From: a virus
Lineage: Duplodnaviria > Heunggongvirae > Uroviricota > Caudoviricetes
Length of the DNA: 10,280 nt
IMG/VR virus record: IMGVR_UViG_2645728048_000009
Strand: one strand, 5' to 3'
Both the position numbers and the translations under genes were made by a program. The notes beneath the pieces were generated by a model that saw only the letters and a list, made by a program, of their open reading frames with translations, had not been told where the DNA came from and ran no database searches. Below, piece after piece: positions 596 through 10,280 of the stretch (the stretch's first letter is position 1; every line of letters starts with the position of its first letter).

Positions 596-1027
596 ATGTT
601 TCTGAAAACAGAACAATTTGAATATAACGGTGTGTCCGTCACGCTTTCCGAGCTGTCTGCGCTGCAGCGTATTGAGCATCTTGCCCTCCTGAAACGGCGT
701 GCAGAACAGGCAGAATCCAGCGGCAACCTGCAGGTAAGCGTGGAAGATCTCGTCAGAACCGGCGCGTTTCTGGTGGCGATGTCCCTGTGGCATAACCATC
801 CGCAGAAAACGGCATCACCGTCAATGAATGAGGCTGTGATGCAGATCGAACAGGAGGTGCTCACCACCTGGCCTGCGGATGCCATTGCCCGGGCGGAAGA
901 TGTGGTGTTGCGTCTGTCCGGGATGAGCGGGGCTGTTCATGCGGATACTGACAGCACCGAAGTGGCGAAAAATAACGCACTGACTGATGATGATTTTTCT
1001 GCGGGAAAGTCTTCGACGGCGAGCTGA
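596..1027 (+). CDS. G: Tail assembly chaperone G
   Basis: ATG at 596 preceded by GGAGG (585-589); 143 codons ending TGA 1025-1027; lies between V and the tape measure gene; contains the G GGA AAG slippery heptamer near its 3' end. Confidence 0.9.
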   Translation: MFLKTEQFEYNGVSVTLSELSALQRIEHLALLKRRAEQAESSGNLQVSVEDLVRTGAFLVAMSLWHNHPQKTASPSMNEAVMQIEQEVLTTWPADAIARAEDVVLRLSGMSGAVHADTDSTEVAKNNALTDDDFSAGKSSTAS

Positions 1028-1467: not shown

Positions 1468-4009
1468 TCTTGTTATTGACCTGAGTCTGGATGCGGTCCG
1501 TTTCGATGAGCAGATGAGCCGGGTAAGGCGTCATTTTTCCGGACTGGAGACTGACGCCAGAAAAACCGCCGGTGTCGTTGAGCAGAACCTGAGTCGTCAG
1601 GCGCTGGCTGCACAAAAAGCCGGGATTTCCGTCGGGCAGTATAAAGCGGCCATGCGAACCCTGCCCGCACAGTTTACGGATATCGCCACGCAGCTTGCCG
1701 GTGGTCAGAATCCCTGGCTGATCCTGCTGCAACAGGGCGGTCAGGTGAAGGACTCCTTCGGCGGGATGATCCCCATGTTCAGGGGACTTGCCGGTGCGAT
1801 CACCCTGCCGATGGTGGGGGCCACCTCGCTGGCGGTGGCGACCGGTGCGCTGGCGTATGCCTGGTATCAGGGCAACTCAACCCTGTCCGATTTCAACAAA
1901 ACGCTGGTCCTTTCCGGCAATCAGGCGGGACTGACGGCAGATCGTATTCTGGCCCTGTCCAGAGCCGGGCAGGCGGCAGGGCTGACGTTTAACCAGACCA
2001 GCGAGTCACTGACGGCGCTGGTGAATGCCGGTGTGCGTGGTGGTGAGCAGTTTGAGGCGATCAGCCAGAGTGTGGCGCGTTTCTCCTCTGCATCCGGCGT
2101 GGAGGTGGACAAGGTCGCTGAAGCCTTCGGGAAGCTGACCACAGACCCGACGTCGGGACTGACAGCGATGGCACGTCAGTTCCATAACGTGACGGCGGAG
2201 CAGATTGCGTATGTTGCTCAGTTGCAGCGTTCCGGAGATGAAGCCGGGGCATTGCAGGCGGCGAACGAGGCCGCAACGAAAGGGTTTGATGACCAGACCC
2301 GCCGCCTGAAAGAGAACATGGGCACGCTGGAAACCTGGGCAGACAGGACAGCACGGGCATTCAAATCCATGTGGGATGCGGTGCTGGATATTGGTCGTCC
2401 TGATACCGCGCAGGAGATGCTGATTAAGGCAGAGGCCGCGTTTAAGAAAGCGGACGATATCTGGAATCTGCGCAAGGATGATTATTTTGTTAACGATGAA
2501 GCGCGGGCGCGTTACTGGGATGATCGTGAAAAGGCCCGTCTTGCGCTTGAAGCCGCCCGAAAGAAGGCTGAGCAGCAGAGTCAACAGGACAAAAATGCGC
2601 AGCAGCAGAGCGATACCGAAGCGTCACGGCTGAAATATACCGAAGAGGCGCAGAAGGCTTACGAACGCCTGCAGACGCCGCTGGAGAAATATACCGCCCG
2701 TCAGGAAGAACTGAATAAGGCACTGAAAGACGGGAAAATCCTGCAGGCAGATTACAACACGCTGATGGCGGCGGCGAAAAAGGATTATGAAGCGACGCTG
2801 AAAAAGCCGAAACAGTCCGGCGTGAAGGTGTCTGCGGGCGATCGTCAGGAAGACAGTGCTCATGCTGCCCTGCTGACGCTTCAGGCAGAACTCCGGACGC
2901 TGGAGAAGCATGCCGGAGCAAATGAGAAAATCAGCCAGCAGCGCCGGGATTTGTGGAAGGCGGAGAGTCAGTTCGCGGTACTGGAGGAGGCGGCGCAACG
3001 TCGCCAGCTGTCTGCACAGGAGAAATCCCTGCTGGCGCATAAAGATGAGACGCTGGAGTACAAACGCCAGCTGGCTGCACTTGGCGACAAGGTTACGTAT
3101 CAGGAGCGCCTGAACGCGCTGGCGCAGCAGGCGGATAAATTCGCACAGCAGCAACGGGCAAAACGGGCCGCCATTGATGCGAAAAGCCGGGGGCTGACTG
3201 ACCGGCAGGCAGAACGGGAAGCCACGGAACAGCGCCTGAAGGAACAGTATGGCGATAATCCGCTGGCGCTGAATAACGTCATGTCAGAGCAGAAAAAGAC
3301 CTGGGCGGCTGAAGACCAGCTTCGCGGGAGCTGGATGGCAGGCCTGAAGTCCGGCTGGAGTGAGTGGGAAGAGAGCGCCACGGACAGTATGTCGCAGGTA
3401 AAAAGTGCAGCCACGCAGACCTTTGATGGTATTGCACAGAATATGGCGGCGATGCTGACCGGCAGTGAGCAGAACTGGCGCAGCTTCACCCGTTCCGTGC
3501 TGTCCATGATGACAGAAATTCTGCTTAAGCAGGCAATGGTGGGGATTGTCGGGAGTATCGGCAGCGCCATTGGCGGGGCTGTTGGTGGCGGCGCATCCGC
3601 GTCAGGCGGTACAGCCATTCAGGCAGCTGCGGCGAAATTCCATTTTGCGACCGGGGGATTTACGGGAACCGGCGGCAAATATGAGCCAGCGGGGATTGTT
3701 CACCGTGGTGAGTTTGTCTTCACGAAGGAGGCAACCAGCCGGATTGGCGTGGGGAATCTTTACCGGCTGATGCGCGGCTATGCCACCGGCGGTTATGTCG
3801 GTACACCGGGCAGCATGGCAGACAGCCGGTCGCAGGCGTCCGGGACGTTTGAGCAGAATAACCATGTGGTGATTAACAACGACGGCACGAACGGGCAGAT
3901 TGGACCACAGGCGCTGAAGGCGGTGTATGACATGGCCCGCAAGGGTGCCCGTGATGAAATTCAGACACAGATGCGTGATGGTGGCCTGTTCTCCGGAGGT
4001 GGACGATGA
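1448..4009 (+). CDS. H: Tail tape measure protein H
   Basis: 853-aa ORF; ATG 1448 preceded by GGAGG (1435-1439). Long central A/Q/E/K/R-rich predicted coiled-coil region, a Gly-rich hydrophobic segment near the C-terminus (approx. 3530-3680), position directly after G-T. Length equals lambda gpH as I recall it. Confidence 0.95.
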   Translation: MSQPVGDLVIDLSLDAVRFDEQMSRVRRHFSGLETDARKTAGVVEQNLSRQALAAQKAGISVGQYKAAMRTLPAQFTDIATQLAGGQNPWLILLQQGGQVKDSFGGMIPMFRGLAGAITLPMVGATSLAVATGALAYAWYQGNSTLSDFNKTLVLSGNQAGLTADRILALSRAGQAAGLTFNQTSESLTALVNAGVRGGEQFEAISQSVARFSSASGVEVDKVAEAFGKLTTDPTSGLTAMARQFHNVTAEQIAYVAQLQRSGDEAGALQAANEAATKGFDDQTRRLKENMGTLETWADRTARAFKSMWDAVLDIGRPDTAQEMLIKAEAAFKKADDIWNLRKDDYFVNDEARARYWDDREKARLALEAARKKAEQQSQQDKNAQQQSDTEASRLKYTEEAQKAYERLQTPLEKYTARQEELNKALKDGKILQADYNTLMAAAKKDYEATLKKPKQSGVKVSAGDRQEDSAHAALLTLQAELRTLEKHAGANEKISQQRRDLWKAESQFAVLEEAAQRRQLSAQEKSLLAHKDETLEYKRQLAALGDKVTYQERLNALAQQADKFAQQQRAKRAAIDAKSRGLTDRQAEREATEQRLKEQYGDNPLALNNVMSEQKKTWAAEDQLRGSWMAGLKSGWSEWEESATDSMSQVKSAATQTFDGIAQNMAAMLTGSEQNWRSFTRSVLSMMTEILLKQAMVGIVGSIGSAIGGAVGGGASASGGTAIQAAAAKFHFATGGFTGTGGKYEPAGIVHRGEFVFTKEATSRIGVGNLYRLMRGYATGGYVGTPGSMADSRSQASGTFEQNNHVVINNDGTNGQIGPQALKAVYDMARKGARDEIQTQMRDGGLFSGGGR

Positions 4010-4335: not shown

Positions 4336-5033
4336 TGCAGGATATCCGGCAGGAAACACTGAATGAATGCACCCGTGCGGAGCAGTCGGCCAGCGTGGTG
4401 CTCTGGGAAATCGACCTGACAGAGGTCGGTGGAGAACGTTATTTTTTCTGTAATGAGCAGAACGAAAAAGGTGAGCCGGTCACCTGGCAGGGGCGACAGT
4501 ATCAGCCGTATCCCATTCAGGGGAGCGGTTTTGAACTGAATGGCAAAGGCACCAGTACGCGCCCCACGCTGACGGTTTCTAACCTGTACGGTATGGTCAC
4601 CGGGATGGCGGAAGATATGCAGAGTCTGGTCGGCGGAACGGTGGTCCGGCGTAAGGTTTACGCCCGTTTTCTGGATGCGGTGAACTTCGTCAACGGAAAC
4701 AGTTACGCCGATCCGGAGCAGGAGGTGATCAGCCGCTGGCGCATCGAGCAGTGCAGCGAACTGAGCGCGGTGAGTGCCTCCTTTGTACTGTCCACGCCGA
4801 CGGAAACGGATGGCGCTGTTTTTCCGGGACGTATCATGCTGGCCAACACCTGCACCTGGACCTATCGCGGTGACGAGTGCGGTTATAACGGTCCGGCTGT
4901 CGCGGATGAATATGACCAGCCGACGTCCGATATCACGAAGGATAAATGCAGCAAATGCCTGAGCGGCTGTAAGTTCCGCAATAACGTCGGCAACTTTGGC
5001 GGCTTCCTTTCCATTAACAAACTTTCGCAGTAA
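4335..5033 (+). CDS. L: Tail tip protein L (C-terminal Cys cluster, probable Fe-S binding)
   Basis: 232-aa ORF; start overlaps the M stop (TGATG at 4333-4337); cysteine cluster CTWTYRGDECGYNG...CSKCLSGC encoded at about 4850-4970; synteny. Confidence 0.9.
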   Translation: MQDIRQETLNECTRAEQSASVVLWEIDLTEVGGERYFFCNEQNEKGEPVTWQGRQYQPYPIQGSGFELNGKGTSTRPTLTVSNLYGMVTGMAEDMQSLVGGTVVRRKVYARFLDAVNFVNGNSYADPEQEVISRWRIEQCSELSAVSASFVLSTPTETDGAVFPGRIMLANTCTWTYRGDECGYNGPAVADEYDQPTSDITKDKCSKCLSGCKFRNNVGNFGGFLSINKLSQ

Positions 5034-5037
5034 TCCC

Positions 5038-5781
5038 ATGACAGAGACAGAATCAGCGATTCTGGCGCACGCCCGGCGATGTGCGCCAGCGGAGTCGTGC
5101 GGCTTCGTGGTGAGAACGCCGGAGGGGGAAAGATATTTTCCCTGCGTGAATATCTCCGGTGAGCCGGAGGAGTATTTCCGGATGTCGCCGGAGGACTGGC
5201 TGCAGGCAGAAATGCAGGGTGAGATTGTGGCGCTGGTCCACAGCCACCCCGGTGGTCTGCCCTGGCTGAGTGAGGCTGACCGGCGGCTGCAGGTGCAGAG
5301 TGATTTGCCGTGGTGGCTGGTCTGCCGGGGGGCGATTCATAAATTCCGCTGTGTGCCGCATCTCACCGGGCGGCGCTTTGAGCACGGGGTGACGGACTGT
5401 TACACGCTGTTCCGGGACGCTTACCATCTGGCGGGGATTGAGATGCCGGATTTTCATCGTGAGGATGACTGGTGGCGTCACGGTCAGAATCTCTATCTGG
5501 ATAATCTGGAGGCAACGGGGCTGTATCAGGTGCCGTTGTCAGCGGCGCAGCCGGGCGATGTGCTGCTGTGCTGTTTTGGTTCATCGGTGCCGAATCATGC
5601 CGCCATTTACTGTGGCGACGGCGAGCTGCTGCACCATATTCCTGAACAACTGAGTAAACGAGAGAGGTACACCGACAAATGGCAGCGACGCACACACTCC
5701 CTCTGGCGTCACCGGGCATGGCACGCATCTGCCTTTACGGGGATTTACAACGATTTGGCCGCCGCATCGACCTTCGTGTGA
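5038..5781 (+). CDS. K: Tail tip assembly protein K with MPN/JAMM-like and NlpC/P60-like domains; longest ORF shown, alternative in-frame start at 5182 (199 aa)
   Basis: ATG 5038 lies 4 nt after the L stop with no Shine-Dalgarno. In-frame ATG 5182 is preceded by GGAGG (5166-5170). JAMM-type motif H-S-H-x7-S-x2-D encoded near 5239-5280. NlpC/P60-like Cys (TDCY, about 5398) and His (VPNHAAIY, about 5595). Stop TGA 5779-5781, overlapping I by 103 nt in another frame. The track's 4996 start is upstream of the L stop and is rejected. Confidence 0.8.
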   Translation: MTETESAILAHARRCAPAESCGFVVRTPEGERYFPCVNISGEPEEYFRMSPEDWLQAEMQGEIVALVHSHPGGLPWLSEADRRLQVQSDLPWWLVCRGAIHKFRCVPHLTGRRFEHGVTDCYTLFRDAYHLAGIEMPDFHREDDWWRHGQNLYLDNLEATGLYQVPLSAAQPGDVLLCCFGSSVPNHAAIYCGDGELLHHIPEQLSKRERYTDKWQRRTHSLWRHRAWHASAFTGIYNDLAAASTFV

Positions 5782-6350
5782 AAACGGGGGCTGAAGCCAT
5801 CCGCGCACTGGCCACACAGCTCCCGGCGTTTCGTCAGAAACTGAGCGACGGCTGGTATCAGGTACGGATTGCCGGGCGGGACGTCAGCACGTCCGGGTTA
5901 ACGGCGCAGTTACATGAGACTCTGCCTGATGGCGCTGTGATTCATATTGTTCCCAGAGTCGCCGGGGCCAAGTCAGGTGGCGTATTCCAGATTGTCCTGG
6001 GAGCAGCCGCCATTGCCGGATCATTCTTTACTGCCGGAGCCACCCTTGCAGCGTGGGGGGCAGCCATTGGGGCCGGTGGTATGACCGGCATCCTGTTTTC
6101 TCTCGGTGCCAGTATGGTGCTCGGTGGTGTGGCCCAGATGCTGGCACCGAAAGCCAGAACTCCCCGTACACAGACAACGGATAACGGCAAACAAAACACC
6201 TATTTCTCCTCACTGGATAACATGGTTGCCCAAGGCAATGTTCTGCCCGTTCTGTACGGTGAAATGCGCGTGGGATCACGTGTGGTTTCTCAGGAGATCA
6301 GCACGGCAGACGAAGGGGACGGTGGTCAGGTTGTGGTGATTGGTCGCTGA
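5679..6350 (+). CDS. I: Tail tip assembly protein I (N-terminal ubiquitin-like region ending in Gly-Gly, then a hydrophobic Gly/Ala-rich C-terminal half)
   Basis: 223-aa ORF; ATG 5679 with GAGAGG upstream (5662-5667); Gly-Gly at codons 100-101 (5976-5981) followed by a hydrophobic A/G/L-rich stretch; synteny K-I-J. Confidence 0.9.
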   Translation: MAATHTLPLASPGMARICLYGDLQRFGRRIDLRVKTGAEAIRALATQLPAFRQKLSDGWYQVRIAGRDVSTSGLTAQLHETLPDGAVIHIVPRVAGAKSGGVFQIVLGAAAIAGSFFTAGATLAAWGAAIGAGGMTGILFSLGASMVLGGVAQMLAPKARTPRTQTTDNGKQNTYFSSLDNMVAQGNVLPVLYGEMRVGSRVVSQEISTADEGDGGQVVVIGR

Positions 6351-6368
6351 TGCAAAATGTTTTATGTG

Positions 6369-6388
6369 AAACCGCCTGCGGGCGGTTT
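6369..6388 (+). other. Stem-loop in the I-J intergenic spacer (8-bp stem AAACCGCC/GGCGGTTT, loop TGCG)
   Basis: Perfect inverted repeat read directly from the sequence, followed by a T-rich stretch (TTTTGTCATTT). Function unknown: possibly an RNA-stabilising or attenuating hairpin between I and J. Confidence 0.35.
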
Positions 6389-6410
6389 TGTCATTTATGG
6401 AGCGTGAGGA

Positions 6411-9400
6411 ATGGGTAAAGGAAGCAGTAAGGGGCATACCCCGCGCGAAGCGAAGGACAACCTGAAGTCCACGCAGTTGCTGAGTGTGATCGATGCCATC
6501 AGCGAAGGGCCGGTTGAAGGTCCGGTAGATGGATTAAAAAGCGTGCTGCTGAACAGTACGCCGGTGCTGGACAGTGAGGGGAATACCAACATCTCCGGCG
6601 TCACGGTGGTGTTCCGGGCAGGTGAGCAGGAGCAGACACCGCCGGAGGGATTTGAATCCTCCGGCTCCGAGACGGTGCTGGGTACGGAAGTGAAATATGA
6701 CACGCCGATCACCCGCACCATCACGTCGGCAAACATCGACCGACTGCGCCTGACCTTCGGCGTGCAGGCACTGGTGGAAACCACCTCAAAGGGGGACAGG
6801 AATCCATCGGAAGTCCGCCTGCTGGTTCAGATACAACGTAACGGTGGCTGGGTGACGGAAAAAGACATCACCATTAAGGGCAAAACCACTTCACAGTATC
6901 TGGCCTCGGTGGTGGTGGATAACCTGCCGCCGCGCCCGTTCAATATCCGGATGCGCAGGATGACGCCGGACAGCACCACAGACCAGCTGCAGAACAAAAC
7001 GCTCTGGTCGTCATACACCGAAATCATCGATGTGAAACAGGGCTACCCGAACACGGCACTGGTCGGCGTGCAGGTGGACTCGGAGCAGTTCGGCAGCCAG
7101 CAGGTGAGCCGTAATTATCATCTTCGCGGGCGCATTCTGCAGGTGCCGTCGAACTATAACCCGCAGACGCGGCAATACAGCGGTATCTGGGACGGAACGT
7201 TAAAACCGGCATACAGCAACAACACGGCCTGGTGTCTGTGGGATATGCTGACCCACCCGCGCTACGGCATGGGGAAACGTCTTGGTGCGGCGGATGTGGA
7301 TAAATGGGCGCTGTATGTCATCGGCCAGTACTGCGACCAGTCGGTGCCGGACGGCTTTGGCGGCACGGAGCCGCGCATTACCTGTAATGCGTACCTGACC
7401 ACACAGCGCAAGGCGTGGGATGTGCTCAGTGATTTCTGCTCGGCGATGCGCTGTATGCCGGTATGGAACGGGCAGACGCTGACGTTCGTGCAGGACCGAC
7501 CATCAGATAAGGTGTGGACCTATAACCGCAGTAATGTGGTGATGCCGGATGATGGTGCGCCGTTCCGCTACAGCTTCAGCGCCCTGAAGGACCGCCATAA
7601 TGCCGTTGAGGTGAACTGGATTGACCCGAATAACGGCTGGGAGACGGCGACAGAGCTTGTTGAAGATACGCAGGCCATTGCCCGTTACGGTCGTAATGTC
7701 ACGAAGATGGATGCCTTTGGTTGTACCAGCCGGGGGCAGGCACACCGAGCCGGGCTGTGGCTGATTAAAACGGAACTGCTGGAAACGCAGACCGTGGATT
7801 TCAGCGTGGGCGCAGAAGGGCTTCGCCATGTGCCGGGCGATGTCATTGAAATCTGTGATGATGACTATGCCGGTATCAGCACCGGCGGGCGCGTGCTGGC
7901 GGTAAACAGCCAGACCCGGACGCTGACGCTCGACCGTGAAATCACGCTGCCATCCTCCGGCACCACGCTGATAAGCCTGGTTGACGGGAAGGGTAATCCG
8001 GTCAGCGTGGAGGTCCAGTCCGTCACCGACGGCGTGAAGGTGAAAGTGAGCCGTGTTCCTGACGGCGTTGCTGAATACAGCGTGTGGGGGCTGAAGTTGC
8101 CGACGTTGCGCCAGCGCCTGTTCCGCTGCGTGAGTATCCGTGAGAACGACGACGGCACGTATGCCATCACCGCCGTGCAGCATGTACCCGAAAAAGAAGC
8201 CATCGTGGATAACGGGGCGCACTTTGACGGCGACCAGAGCGGCACGGTGAATGGTGTCACGCCGCCAGCGGTGCAGCACCTGACTGCCGAAGTCACCGCA
8301 GACAGCGGGGAATATCAGGTGCTGGCGCGCTGGGACACGCCGAAGGTGGTGAAGGGCGTGAGCTTTATGCTTCGCCTGACCGTGGCAGCGGATGACGGCA
8401 GTGAGCGGCTGGTCAGCACGGCCCGGACGACGGAAACCACATACCGCTTCACGCAACTGGCGCCGGGGAACTACAGGCTGACAGTCCGGGCGGTAAATGC
8501 GTGGGGGCAGCAGGGCGATCCGGCGTCGGTATCGTTCCGGATTGCCGCACCGGCAGCACCGTCGCGGATTGAGCTGACACCGGGCTATTTTCAGATAACA
8601 GCGGTCCCGCGTCTTGCGGTGTATGACCCGACGGTACAGTTTGAGTTCTGGTTTTCGGAAACGCGGATTACCGATATCAGGCAGGTTGAAACCACAGCCC
8701 GCTACCTTGGCACGGGGCTGTACTGGATAGCCGCCAGTATCAATATCAAACCGGGCCATGATTATTACTTTTATATCCGCAGTGTGAACACCGTTGGCAA
8801 ATCGGCATTTGTGGAGGCTGTTGGCCAGCCGAGTGATGATGCATCCGGCTATCTGGATTTTTTCAAAGGAGAGATAGGGAAAACCCATCTGGCTCAGGAG
8901 TTGTGGACTCAGATTGATAACGGTCAGCTTGCGCCTGACCTGGCGGAAATCAGAACGTCCATCACGGATGTCAGTAATGAAATCACGCAGACCGTCAATA
9001 AGAAACTGGAAGACCAGAGTGCAGCGATCCAGCAGATACAGAAGGTTCAGGTTGATACAAATAATAATCTGAACAGCATGTGGGCTGTGAAGCTGCAACA
9101 GATGAAGGACGGACGCCTTTATATTGCGGGTATCGGTGCCGGTATTGAGAATACGCCAGCAGGAATGCAGAGTCAGGTGCTGCTGGCGGCAGACAGGATT
9201 GCGATGATTAATCCTGCGAATGGCAACACAAAGCCGATGTTTGTTGGTCAGGGCGATCAGATATTCATGAATGAAGTGTTCCTGAAATATCTGACGGCTC
9301 CCACCATTACCAGTGGCGGCAATCCTCCGGCATTTTCCCTGACATCAGACGGAAAGCTGACCGCTAAAAATGCGGATATCAGTGGCAGTGTGAATGCGAA

Positions 9401-9890
9401 CTCCGGGACGCTCAACAACGTCACGATTAACGAGAACTGTCGGGTTCTGGGAAAACTGTCCGCGAACCAGATTGAAGGCGATCTCGTTAAAACAGTGGGC
9501 AAAGCTTTCCCCCGGGACTCCCGTGCACCGGAACGGTGGCCATCAGGGACCATTACCGTCAGGGTTTATGACGATCAGCCGTTTGACCGGCAGATTGTTA
9601 TTCCGGCGGTGGCATTCAGCGGCGCTAAACATGAGAGAGAGCATACTGATATTTACTCCTCATGCCGTCTGATAGTGCGGAAAAACGGTGCTGAAATTTA
9701 TAACCGTACCGCGCTGGATAATACGCTGATTTACAGTGGCGTTATTGATATGCCTGCCGGTCACGGTCACATGACGCTGGAGTTTTCGGTGTCAGCATGG
9801 CTGGTGAATAACTGGTATCCCACAGCAAGTATCAGCGATTTGCTGGTTGTGGTGATGAAGAAAGCCACCGCAGGCATCAGTATCAGCTGA
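6411..9890 (+). CDS. J: Central tail fibre / host-specificity protein J (tail tip; FN3-like repeats; divergent C-terminal receptor-binding region)
   Basis: 1159-aa ORF; ATG 6411 preceded by GAGGA (6405-6409). FN3-like segment encoded around 8250-8560. The N-terminal approx. 800 aa match my recollection of lambda J closely, whereas the last approx. 340 aa (from about 8870) diverge and the DNA there has visibly lower GC. Confidence 0.95.
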
Positions 9891-9908: not shown

Positions 9909-9933
9909 GGGCGCCAGAAATGGCGCCTTTTTT
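9909..9933 (+). terminator. Rho-independent terminator after J
   Basis: GC stem GGCGCC (9910-9915), loop AGAAAT, GGCGCC (9922-9927), followed immediately by TTTTTT (9928-9933); located 20 nt after the J stop. Confidence 0.8.
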
Positions 9934-9957
9934 ATTGCAGAAAAGCGAGAGGTAATT

Positions 9958-10280
9958 ATGCGTAAATTATGTGCTGTTATTCTGTCCGCAGTAGTCTGGC
10001 TGGTTGCCGCTGGTACGCCAGCGAGCGCAGCAGAGCATCAGTCCACACTAAGCGCCGGGTATCTTCAGACCCATACTGATATGCCAGGCAGCGATGACCT
10101 GAAGGGCATTAACGTGAAATACCGTTATGAATTTACGGACACGCTGGGGCTGGTGACGTCATTCAGCTATGCAGGAGACAGGAATCGCCAGCTTACCCGT
10201 TACAGCGATACCCGCTGGCATGAAGATTCCGTGCGTAACCGCTGGTTCAGCGTGATGGCGGGGCCGTCTGTACGCGTGAA
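9958..10280 (+). CDS. lom: Lom / Ail-family outer membrane protein, 5' part (continues past the window end)
   Basis: ATG 9958 preceded by GAGAGG (9945-9950). Open frame to the window edge (107 codons, no stop), which is why it is absent from the ORF track. N-terminal signal-peptide-like sequence [24 protein letters not shown] followed by beta-barrel-like alternating motifs ([23 protein letters not shown]) that match my recollection of lambda Lom. Position downstream of J as in lambda. Confidence 0.85.

What the first reader, a model, noticed from the sequence alone, without database searches (positions are those of the whole stretch)
5038..5781. K and I form a JAB/JAMM peptidase plus ubiquitin-like pair; K also carries an NlpC/P60 domain
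K encodes an exact JAMM metalloprotease signature (HSHPGGLPWLSEAD, i.e. H-x-H-x7-S-x2-D, near 5239-5280) followed by an NlpC/P60-type Cys/His pair. The next gene, I, has an N-terminal domain of about 100 aa ending in Gly-Gly (5976-5981), followed by a hydrophobic Gly/Ala-rich tail. Comparative-genomics literature has predicted that lambda I has a ubiquitin-like beta-grasp domain which the JAB domain of K may release by cleavage after GG. Both motifs are intact in this copy, consistent with a conserved but still poorly characterised processing step in tail-tip assembly.
Basis: partly seen in the sequence, partly recalled or inferred. Interest (0 to 1): 0.45.

Follow-up and report, generated by a model that had tools for sequence, protein, structure and literature searches.

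The report
Lambda tail genes K and I
These are the ordinary tail-tip assembly genes K and I of a lambda-like phage: K is a double peptidase and I starts with a ubiquitin-like domain that K removes during assembly. This pairing was predicted in 2006 and has since been reported experimentally.

Summary
Nt 5038-5781 is a 247-aa gpK with a complete JAMM site (E19, H68-S-H70, S78, D81; nt 5239-5280 verified). It also has an NlpC/P60 triad (C121, H187, H199). Both Pfam domains score above their cut-offs, and the catalytic residues (S78 excepted: nearly invariant) are invariant in phages only 32-48% identical.

The next gene, I (5679-6350), is 222/223 identical to lambda gpI. Its residues 14-97 model as a beta-grasp whose 50 best PDB matches are all MoaD, SAMP1, CysO, Urm1, ThiS, ubiquitin or SUMO.

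Iyer, Burroughs and Aravind proposed it in 2006. Cryo-EM shows only the C-terminal part of gpI in virions, and mass spectrometry finds no gpK there. A 2025 talk from the Davidson lab reported that gpK cuts the ubiquitin-like domain off gpI once gpI is in the tip complex.

One detail probably needs correcting. The Gly100-Gly101 pair is not the family-wide ubiquitin "GG". The conserved equivalent is Gly96-Ala97 (nt 5964-5969), and a published lambda tail model resolves gpI from residue 101 onward. The cut is therefore more likely near Ala97/Lys98.

The role of the conserved NlpC/P60 domain remains unexplained. Verdict: real, ordinary, already known.

The parts
5038..5781 (+). Gene K: tail-tip assembly protein, 247 aa, JAMM plus NlpC/P60
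   Evidence: ORF; two Pfam domains; phrog_30 minor tail protein. The start at 5038, not lambda's annotated M49 at 5182, is supported two ways: 16 of 20 polymorphic sites in nt 5038-5181 fall on K-frame codon position 3, and the invariant E19 lies in this stretch.
5047..5331 (+). JAB/JAMM (MPN+) metalloprotease domain, K residues 4-98
   Evidence: Pfam PF14464 E 4.7e-14. AF2 pLDDT about 85-93. Foldseek best matches: PfJAMM1 5ld9/5lda (TMt 0.65, rmsd 2.8), Rpn11, CSN5, AMSH. NCBIfam's nearest model is desampylase, below its cut-off.
5092..5094 (+). JAMM catalytic glutamate, E19 (in PAESCG)
   Evidence: Invariant in 9 phages at 32-48% identity. Aligned to the E of 2kks and 2kcq.
5239..5280 (+). 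JAMM zinc-binding motif H68-S-H70-x7-S78-x2-D81
   Evidence: Read directly from the sequence. H68, S69, H70 and D81 are invariant across diverse phages.
5368..5709 (+). NlpC/P60 (C40, papain-like) domain, K residues 111-224, with C121 (5398-5400), H187 (5596-5598), H199 (5632-5634)
   Evidence: Pfam PF00877 E 5.8e-13. Profile hits to MepS/Spr, CwlO and LytE. C121, H187 and H199 are invariant. The His-to-His spacing is 12 residues.
5679..5781 (+). K/I overlap of 103 nt; I lies in the -1 frame of K
   Evidence: Coordinates. Four of 5 polymorphic sites here are silent in I but change K. Distant phages overlap by only 4-49 nt.
5679..6350 (+). Gene I: tail-tip assembly/plug protein, 223 aa
   Evidence: 222/223 identical to lambda gpI, PDB 8iyk_I. 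100% identical to the I protein of phage 21.
5718..5969 (+). Ubiquitin-like beta-grasp domain of I, residues 14-97
   Evidence: Pfam PF06805. AF2 secondary structure is b-b-a-b-b-a-b. The Foldseek top 50 are all MoaD, SAMP1, CysO, Urm1, ThiS, Ub or SUMO.
5964..5969 (+). G96-A97: the family-conserved equivalent of the ubiquitin/MoaD C-terminal GG, and the proposed P2-P1 of the scissile site
   Evidence: G96 in 60 of 64 homologues; position 97 is A, S or G in 60 of 64. hhalign puts G96 on MoaD G80 and on Ub G75. The Pfam domain ends at residue 97.
5976..5981 (+).
   Evidence: G100 in 41 of 64 and G101 in 50 of 64 homologues; spacer length varies. gpI is reported as resolved from residue 101 in the closed tail (PMC11101478).
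5982..6134 (+). Hydrophobic Gly/Ala-rich segment, residues 102-152 (helices H1/H2, predicted to be membrane-inserting)
   Evidence: Seen directly in the sequence. G108, G143 and G150 are nearly invariant. Described as H1/H2 in PMC11101478.
6078..6347 (+). Part of I retained and resolved in mature virions, residues 134-223 (plug that holds the C-terminus of gpH)
   Evidence: PDB 9e7m chains cover residues 133-222. PMC10721106 models 135-223 and PMC12617516 models 134-222.

Best explanation
This is the K-I pair of a lambda-like tail-tip assembly module.

gpI is made as a precursor with four parts:
- an N-terminal MoaD/SAMP-like ubiquitin-fold domain (residues 14-97);
- a short Lys/Gly spacer;
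- two hydrophobic Gly/Ala-rich helices;
- the C-terminal plug that sits inside the tip cone and holds the C-terminus of the tape-measure protein.

gpK is a non-structural assembly enzyme. Its JAMM zinc protease domain recognises the ubiquitin-like domain and cuts it off at the end of the beta-grasp. This is the same reaction that desampylases, Rpn11 and CSN5 perform on Ub-like tails. It happens once gpI has joined J and L in the tip complex. The cut acts as an assembly checkpoint. It also exposes or frees the hydrophobic N-terminus of mature gpI.

There is no E1 or E2 in the module, so this is processing only, not conjugation.

What is shown here: both folds, all catalytic residues and their conservation.
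What comes from the literature: the N-terminus is absent from particles, gpK is absent from virions, and cleavage depends on gpK.
What I infer: the cutting domain is the JAB domain rather than NlpC/P60. I also infer that the bond lies at or next to G96-A97|K98 rather than after G101.
For: Folds and catalytic residues:
- Pfam domains are above their cut-offs.
- E19, H68, S69, H70, D81 and C121, H187, H199 are invariant in 9 phages at 32-48% identity.
- The JAB model matches PfJAMM1 (including its SAMP2 complex), Rpn11 and CSN5.
- The beta-grasp model of I matches MoaD, SAMP1, CysO, Urm1 and Ub.

Genomic linkage:
- K and I are adjacent in 8 of 11 diverse phages checked.
- K-I fusion families exist in PHROGs: phrog_35166 and phrog_28576.

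Literature:
- The prediction was made in PMC1779556.
- Only gpI 134/135-223 is seen in virions, and gpK is absent by mass spectrometry (PMC10721106 and PMC12617516).
- The single gpI peptide in that mass spectrometry covers 9.87%, or 22 aa. That is the length of the C-terminal tryptic peptide (my inference).
- The N-terminus of the F-pyocin gpI homologue PA0640 is present in stalled precursors and absent from mature particles (preprint).
- The Davidson lab talk reports that gpK cleaves the Ubl of gpI after gpI joins the tip complex (PMC12908700).

Cleavage site:
- Conservation counts.
- hhalign register.
- gpI is resolved from residue 101.
Against: - The direct experimental demonstration is available to me only as a conference summary. 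It names neither the catalytic domain nor the bond cut.
- My attempt to model K and I together failed. The natural fusion P0152 gave mean pLDDT 50, with only the JAB domain confident, so there is no structural support for docking of the tail in the JAMM site.
- The hhalign alignments used for the G96 register have low probability, 4-5%.
- 'Resolved from 101' is one sentence in a paper, not coordinates I could inspect.
- Absence of density for the N-terminus is also compatible with flexibility.
Confidence: 0.85

Rival explanations
1. The NlpC/P60 (papain-like) domain of K, not the JAB domain, cuts gpI. The JAB domain would serve only to bind the ubiquitin-like domain.
For: - The C121/H187/H199 triad is as invariant as the JAMM site.
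- Iyer et al. raised the possibility that the NlpC/P60 domain also processes TAPI.
- Papain-fold enzymes are the commonest eukaryotic deubiquitinases.
- Caulobacter phage Seuss has an NlpC-only K next to a Ubl-bearing I.
Against: - The full JAMM catalytic set (E, HxH, S, D) is invariant, which is not expected for a mere binding module.
- JAB-only K homologues and JAB-I fusion families exist: Synechococcus S-H1 and phrog_35166.
- The conference summary refers to K's 'deubiquitinating domain'.
Confidence: 0.1
2. K is a virion-associated or injected peptidoglycan hydrolase (NlpC/P60 D,L-endopeptidase) used to cross the cell wall. The K-I adjacency would then be only a matter of gene order.
For: - The nearest solved relatives of the C-terminal domain are cell-wall endopeptidases: MepS/Spr, CwlO and LytE.
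- NCBIfam's weak hit is 'putative phage cell wall peptidase'.
- The lambda peptidoglycan-cleaving activity is still unidentified (PMC11101478).
Against: - gpK was not detected in virions by mass spectrometry and is not seen in any tail structure.
- Its F-pyocin homologue PA0639 is absent from particles, and its deletion gives tip-less tubes, which is an assembly phenotype.
- This reading does not explain the JAB domain or the conserved Ubl of I.
Confidence: 0.05
3. The N-terminal domain of I is never removed. It stays attached but is flexible and invisible in cryo-EM, and the JAMM motif is a non-functional relic.
For: Several structural papers describe the N-terminus simply as 'unresolved'.
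Against: - The JAMM residues are invariant down to 32% identity.
- Peptide coverage of PA0640 shows the N-terminus in precursors but not in mature particles.
- Cleavage has been reported.
- The only gpI peptide found in lambda virions has the length of the C-terminal tryptic peptide.
Confidence: 0.03

Closest known systems
Lambda gpK / gpI (TAPK / TAPI of Iyer, Burroughs and Aravind 2006; UniProt tail tip assembly proteins K and I)
   Same: Same genes. I is 222/223 identical to lambda gpI and 100% identical to the I protein of phage 21. The DNA of 4900-6450 is about 97% identical to lambda-group phages. The gene order is the same: H-M-L-K-I-J-lom.
   Different: Only allelic differences, for example I164T in I. 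K is read here as 247 aa, as in RefSeq 'C40 family peptidase' and the phage 21 record. The classical lambda annotation gives 199 aa, which cuts off the first 48 residues of the JAB domain, including the catalytic Glu.
Archaeal desampylases (HvJAMM1, PfJAMM1) acting on SAMP1/2
   Same: A minimal about 110-residue JAMM domain with E/HxH/S/D. It is the best structural match to K residues 1-104 (5ld9/5lda). The substrate is a MoaD-like beta-grasp protein, and SAMP1 is among the best matches to I residues 14-97. These enzymes cut after the C-terminal Gly-Gly of the Ubl, including in linear fusions.
   Different: - No E1 (UbaA) partner and no conjugation cycle here.
- The Ubl is a cis-fused pro-domain of a structural protein.
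- The conserved tail is G-[A/S] rather than GG.
- The JAMM domain is fused to an NlpC/P60 domain.
Mec+/CysO and QbsD/QbsE (bacterial JAMM plus sulfur-carrier Ubl pairs)
   Same: A JAMM peptidase is encoded next to a MoaD/ThiS-type Ubl and trims residues from its C-terminus. CysO is a top structural hit for I (3dwg_C).
   Different: Those systems expose a GG for thiocarboxylate chemistry in cofactor or cysteine synthesis. Here nothing indicates sulfur transfer, and the product that matters is the C-terminal fragment.
PA0639 / PA0640 of the Pseudomonas F-type pyocin
   Same: Homologous pair. PDB 25vf_9, the F-pyocin plug protein as I infer, matches I at E 5e-18. Only the C-terminal part (127-200) is seen. 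The N-terminus is removed between the precursor tip and the mature particle. Deletion of PA0639 gives tip-less tubes.
   Different: It is a tailocin, not a phage. The authors did not link the cleavage to the JAB domain of PA0639.
Bil / CBASS Cap2-Cap3 bacterial ubiquitin-like conjugation systems
   Same: They use a JAB-family peptidase with a Ubl or a Ubl-like C-terminus. The Bil system even targets the phage central tail fibre.
   Different: Those are host defence systems with E1/E2 enzymes and isopeptide conjugation. The K-I pair is phage-encoded, has no E1/E2, and performs a single maturation cut.

Membership tests
JAMM/MPN+ metalloprotease (Pfam Prok-JAB PF14464) | Sequence match to the family model above the curated threshold | tested here: met
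   52.7 bits against a cut-off of 25, E 4.7e-14, K residues 4-98.
JAMM/MPN+ metalloprotease (Pfam Prok-JAB PF14464) | Complete catalytic motif E...HxH-x7-S-x2-D | tested here: met
   E19, H68, H70, S78 and D81 are present. E19, H68, S69, H70 and D81 are invariant in 9 diverse phages.
JAMM/MPN+ metalloprotease (Pfam Prok-JAB PF14464) | MPN fold | tested here: met
   AF2 residues 1-104 have pLDDT about 85-93. Foldseek matches PfJAMM1 (TMt 0.65, rmsd 2.8 A), Rpn11 and CSN5.
JAMM/MPN+ metalloprotease (Pfam Prok-JAB PF14464) | Zinc-dependent (iso)peptidase activity on a Ubl tail | not testable with these tools
   Known only from the report in conference summary PMC12908700.
NlpC/P60 (MEROPS C40) papain-like peptidase | Sequence match above the Pfam threshold | tested here: met
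   49.2 bits against a cut-off of 23, E 5.8e-13, residues 111-224. Profile hits to MepS/Spr, CwlO and LytE.
NlpC/P60 (MEROPS C40) papain-like peptidase | Cys-His-His/polar catalytic triad | tested here: met
   C121, H187 and H199 are invariant. C121 lies at the start of a predicted helix (low confidence).
NlpC/P60 (MEROPS C40) papain-like peptidase | Papain-like fold confirmed by structure | tested here: inconclusive
   This part of the fusion model has pLDDT of 33-54, and no NlpC/P60 chain appeared among the Foldseek hits.
NlpC/P60 (MEROPS C40) papain-like peptidase | Cell-wall (gamma-D-Glu-mDAP) endopeptidase activity | not testable with these tools
   The substrate is unknown. gpK is absent from virions.
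Ubiquitin-like beta-grasp, MoaD/ThiS/SAMP class (Pfam Lambda_tail_I PF06805) | Beta-grasp fold | tested here: met
   The AF2 model is b-b-a-b-b-a-b. All 50 top Foldseek PDB hits are Ubl proteins, TMt up to 0.72.
Ubiquitin-like beta-grasp, MoaD/ThiS/SAMP class (Pfam Lambda_tail_I PF06805) | Conserved small-residue tail (GG or equivalent) directly after strand beta5 | tested here: met
   P92-x3-G96-[A/S]97 is conserved: 64, 60 and 58 of 64 homologues. It aligns to the GG of MoaD and Ub. G100-G101 is not conserved in position.
Ubiquitin-like beta-grasp, MoaD/ThiS/SAMP class (Pfam Lambda_tail_I PF06805) | Significant sequence similarity to MoaD/ThiS | tested here: inconclusive
   A profile search of PDB gives MoaD-related 1v8c at E 0.42 and ThiS/MoaD 4n6e at E 0.53. 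hhalign probability is 4-5%. Iyer et al. report PSI-BLAST e=1e-3.
Ubiquitin-like conjugation system (E1/E2/Ubl/DUB) | E1-like adenylating enzyme and/or E2 encoded with the Ubl | tested here: not met
   The large + strand ORFs of the window are the tail genes V, G/T, H, M, L, K, I, J, plus the start of lom. This is therefore not a conjugation system; it only works like the deconjugation or processing half of one.

The most novel reading that the evidence does not exclude
Two things are not excluded by my evidence.

(b) The invariant but unexplained NlpC/P60 domain of gpK may be the long-sought protease for another maturation cut in the tail. [quoted passage not shown] Its enzyme is stated to be unknown (PMC12617516). 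The C-terminal piece of gpH is held by the same gpI plug.

One small enzyme would then control two proteolytic checkpoints of tail assembly.
Probability: 0.1. Interest if true: 0.55.

Novelty: already known. Interest (0 to 1): 0.15.

Why it matters
It matters mainly as a textbook case. A ubiquitin-fold pro-domain and a JAMM 'deubiquitinase' are used by a virus of bacteria as a one-shot assembly checkpoint, without any conjugation machinery. That bears on the prokaryotic origin of the ubiquitin system.

For this particular window it adds nothing new, because the genes are near-identical to those of lambda and phage 21.

Two loose ends are still worth an experiment:
- the exact bond that is cut;
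- the substrate of the strictly conserved NlpC/P60 domain.

A practical point for annotation: the classical 199-aa lambda K annotation truncates the JAB domain.

Tried and rejected
1. Modelling K and I together. I used a natural K-I fusion ORF (P0152, 428 aa) to see whether the tail of I docks in the JAMM site. A first MAFFT alignment was misaligned and I rebuilt it. The AF2 model was still poor: mean pLDDT 50, pTM 0.37, with only the JAB domain confident. No docking or cleavage-site inference was possible.

2. Programmed -1 frameshift making a K-I fusion. I lies in the -1 frame of K, but I found no X_XXY_YYZ heptamer in the overlap by inspection. The fused ORFs in the databases are mostly single-sequence clusters at 78-99% identity, most likely sequencing errors or pseudogenes. 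Rejected.

3. A second GGGAAAG inside K (5126-5132). It starts at codon position 2, so it is out of phase. Three copies in the window are within chance. Rejected.

4. P0288, a 2783-aa 'protein' with 23 matches to the start of I. It is a junk translation of a tandem DNA repeat. Rejected.

5. The search for related loci on viral contigs returned only 97-99% identical loci. These were useless for diversity but useful for the polymorphism counts. Diversity came instead from tblastn on phage records and from the representative search.

6. Sequence-only detection of MoaD/ThiS similarity was not significant. The fold comparison was needed.

7. A third homologue search with a diverse profile added only modest diversity.

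8. I searched for a full paper or preprint on gpK cleavage of gpI and found none in the library. Only the conference summary is held.

Full report
WHAT IS THERE

The window is the tail module of a lambda-like phage or prophage. Its + strand ORFs and Pfam hits give this order:
- the C-terminus of V;
- G, with the T frame;
- H (853 aa);
- M, L;
- K (5038-5781);
- I (5679-6350);
- J (1159 aa);
- the start of lom.

Nt 4900-6450 are about 97% identical to lambda, phage 21, HK630 and relatives. The whole window is about 92% identical to several lambdoid phages. I is 222/223 identical to lambda gpI in PDB 8iyk and 100% identical to the I protein of phage 21.

CHECK OF THE OBSERVATION

- H68-S-H70-x7-S78-x2-D81 of K is encoded at 5239-5280.
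- G100-G101 of I is encoded at 5976-5981.

I add the following.
- The JAMM glutamate E19 is at 5092-5094.
- The NlpC/P60 triad is C121, H187 and H199.
- Pfam gives Prok-JAB (E 4.7e-14), NLPC_P60 (E 5.8e-13) and Lambda_tail_I (E 1.1e-28), all well above the curated cut-offs.
- In nine K proteins from phages of Yersinia, Burkholderia, Pseudomonas, Stenotrophomonas, Klebsiella and E. coli (32-48% identity), E19, H68, S69, H70, D81, C121, H187 and H199 are all invariant.
- Both domains are found in 8 of 10 such proteins.

FOLDS

An AlphaFold2 model of I residues 14-110 has pLDDT of about 87 over the first 80 residues. It has the beta-beta-alpha-beta-beta-alpha-beta order of a beta-grasp, and the chain becomes disordered from about K98. 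Its 50 best Foldseek matches in the PDB are all ubiquitin-fold proteins: MoaD, SAMP1, CysO, Urm1, ThiS, then ubiquitin and SUMO. The best E-value is 5.6e-4 and TM-scores reach 0.72.

The N-terminal 104 residues of K were modelled as part of a fusion protein and are confident. They match Pyrococcus JAMM1 (including its complex with SAMP2), Rpn11, CSN5 and AMSH.

The NlpC/P60 part of that model is of low confidence. That domain therefore rests on sequence evidence only.

WHAT IS ALREADY KNOWN

Iyer, Burroughs and Aravind (2006, PMC1779556) described exactly this. They identified a ThiS/MoaD-like Ub domain in tail assembly protein I and JAB plus NlpC/P60 domains in K. [quoted passage not shown]

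Later work fits that proposal.
- Cryo-EM of lambda virions resolves only gpI 134/135-223, as a trimeric plug holding the C-terminus of gpH. Mass spectrometry does not detect gpK (PMC10721106 and PMC12617516).
- The only gpI peptide in that mass spectrometry covers 9.87% of the protein, or 22 residues. That is the length of the C-terminal tryptic peptide (my inference).
- In the Pseudomonas F-pyocin, the N-terminus of the gpI homologue PA0640 is present in stalled precursor tips and absent from mature particles. Deleting the gpK homologue gives tip-less tubes (preprint 10.64898/2026.02.24.707460).
[quoted passage not shown] This happens only after gpI has bound other tip proteins, which enforces stepwise assembly (PMC12908700).

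I found no full paper on this in the library.

MECHANISM

- gpI is a precursor whose Ub-like pro-domain precedes two hydrophobic helices and the plug domain.
- gpK is a transient assembly enzyme. Its JAMM domain removes the pro-domain once gpI is in the J-L-I complex.
- No E1 or E2 is encoded, so the pair works like the processing half of a Ubl system without being a conjugation system.
- That the JAB domain, not the NlpC/P60 domain, does the cutting is inferred from three things: the complete invariant JAMM site, JAB-only homologues and JAB-I fusion families, and the wording of the conference report.

The Gly-Gly at 100-101 is probably not the ubiquitin-type tail.
- Among 64 diverse representatives, P92 is kept in 64, G96 in 60 and position 97 is A or S in 58. 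G100 is kept in 41 and G101 in 50.
- The stretch between G96-A97 and the hydrophobic segment varies in length and composition: GAKSGG, GAGK, GAGGK, GGG and others.
- The Pfam domain ends at residue 97.
- hhalign puts G96 on MoaD G80 and on ubiquitin G75, the penultimate glycines. These are low-probability alignments, but both give the same register.
- PMC11101478 says that in the closed tail gpI is resolved 'from position 101 onward'. That would leave G101 on the mature fragment.

I therefore place the cut at or next to A97|K98 (nt 5969/5970), with moderate confidence.

OTHER POINTS

- The classical lambda annotation of K has 199 aa and starts at M49 (nt 5182), behind a GGAGGAG at 5166-5172. 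That start would delete the catalytic Glu.
- Nt 5038-5181 vary mostly at K-frame third codon positions, 16 of 20 sites. The 247-aa reading used by the finding is therefore right.
- K and I overlap by 103 nt. In that overlap 4 of 5 polymorphic sites are silent in I and change K. Distant phages lack the long overlap and the K tail. The last 20 or so residues of K therefore look unconstrained.

WHAT REMAINS OPEN

The substrate of the invariant NlpC/P60 domain is unknown. It is unlikely to be a virion lysin, because gpK is not in particles.

A speculative possibility is that it performs another maturation cut, such as gpH to gpH*, whose protease is unknown.

VERDICT

The feature is real and correctly read, and it is already known. 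It has low interest as a scan finding.

Noticed in passing
window 5038-5184: The classical lambda annotation starts K at M49 (ATG 5182), 9 nt after a strong Shine-Dalgarno-like GGAGGAG (5166-5172). That would remove 48 residues of the JAB domain, including the catalytic E19. Polymorphism upstream of 5182 falls on K-frame codon position 3 at 16 of 20 sites, so the long ORF from 5038 is coding. Whether a short 199-aa form is also made from the internal site is unknown.
   Followed up: partly
window 5679-5781: K and I overlap by 103 nt, with I in the -1 frame of K. Four of 5 polymorphic sites among 31 distinct close relatives are silent in I and non-synonymous in K. The apparent conservation of K residues about 229-247 is therefore probably imposed by strand beta1 of I. 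Distant phages overlap by only 4-49 nt and lack this K tail.
   Followed up: yes
P0152, P0233, P0014, P0185 and others; PHROG phrog_28576 and phrog_35166: Many database ORFs fuse K, or only its JAB or NlpC part, to I. The lambda-like ones are mostly single-sequence clusters and look like frameshift errors. However, two PHROG families match both K and I, consistent with the natural JAB-I fusions mentioned by Iyer et al.
   Followed up: partly
window 6369-6388: There is a GC-rich hairpin, AAACCGCC-TGCG-GGCGGTTT, followed by T-rich sequence in the 60-nt gap between I and J. It is annotated as a terminator in the phage 21 record. The simple terminator scan did not flag it. A terminator in the middle of the late operon would need Q-mediated read-through.
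   Followed up: no
window 1003-1009 and 1054-1467: The G-T -1 frameshift heptamer G_GGA_AAG is present in the correct phase near the end of G, with the T frame open downstream. This is the classical lambda tail-chaperone frameshift.
   Followed up: partly
window 3500-4009 (C-terminal part of H): The C-terminal region of the tape-measure protein has a Gly/Ala-rich hydrophobic stretch (…GSAIGGAVGGGASASGGTAIQAAAAKF…). It resembles the Gly/Ala-rich linker of I. gpH is cleaved somewhere here by an unknown protease, according to PMC12617516.
   Followed up: no
L088 (Synechococcus phage S-H1), L090 (Caulobacter phage Seuss), L089 (Vibrio phage pVa-1), L087 (Pseudomonas phage BR178a): Several variant layouts occur. 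S-H1 has a JAB-only 102-aa protein and an I homologue fused into a 432-aa protein. Seuss has an NlpC/P60-only 125-aa protein. In pVa-1, three extra genes (two of them on the opposite strand) lie between the P60 peptidase gene and I; in BR178a one extra gene lies between K and I.
   Followed up: partly
window 6411-9890 and 9910-10280: J is 1159 aa, compared with 1132 aa in lambda. It is followed by a hairpin with a T-run (about 9910-9934) and the start of a lom-like gene (ATG 9959, [11 protein letters not shown]…).
   Followed up: no
P0288: A 2783-aa predicted 'protein' gave 23 matches to residues 10-63 of I. It is a translation of a tandem DNA repeat, not a poly-ubiquitin-like protein.
   Followed up: yes
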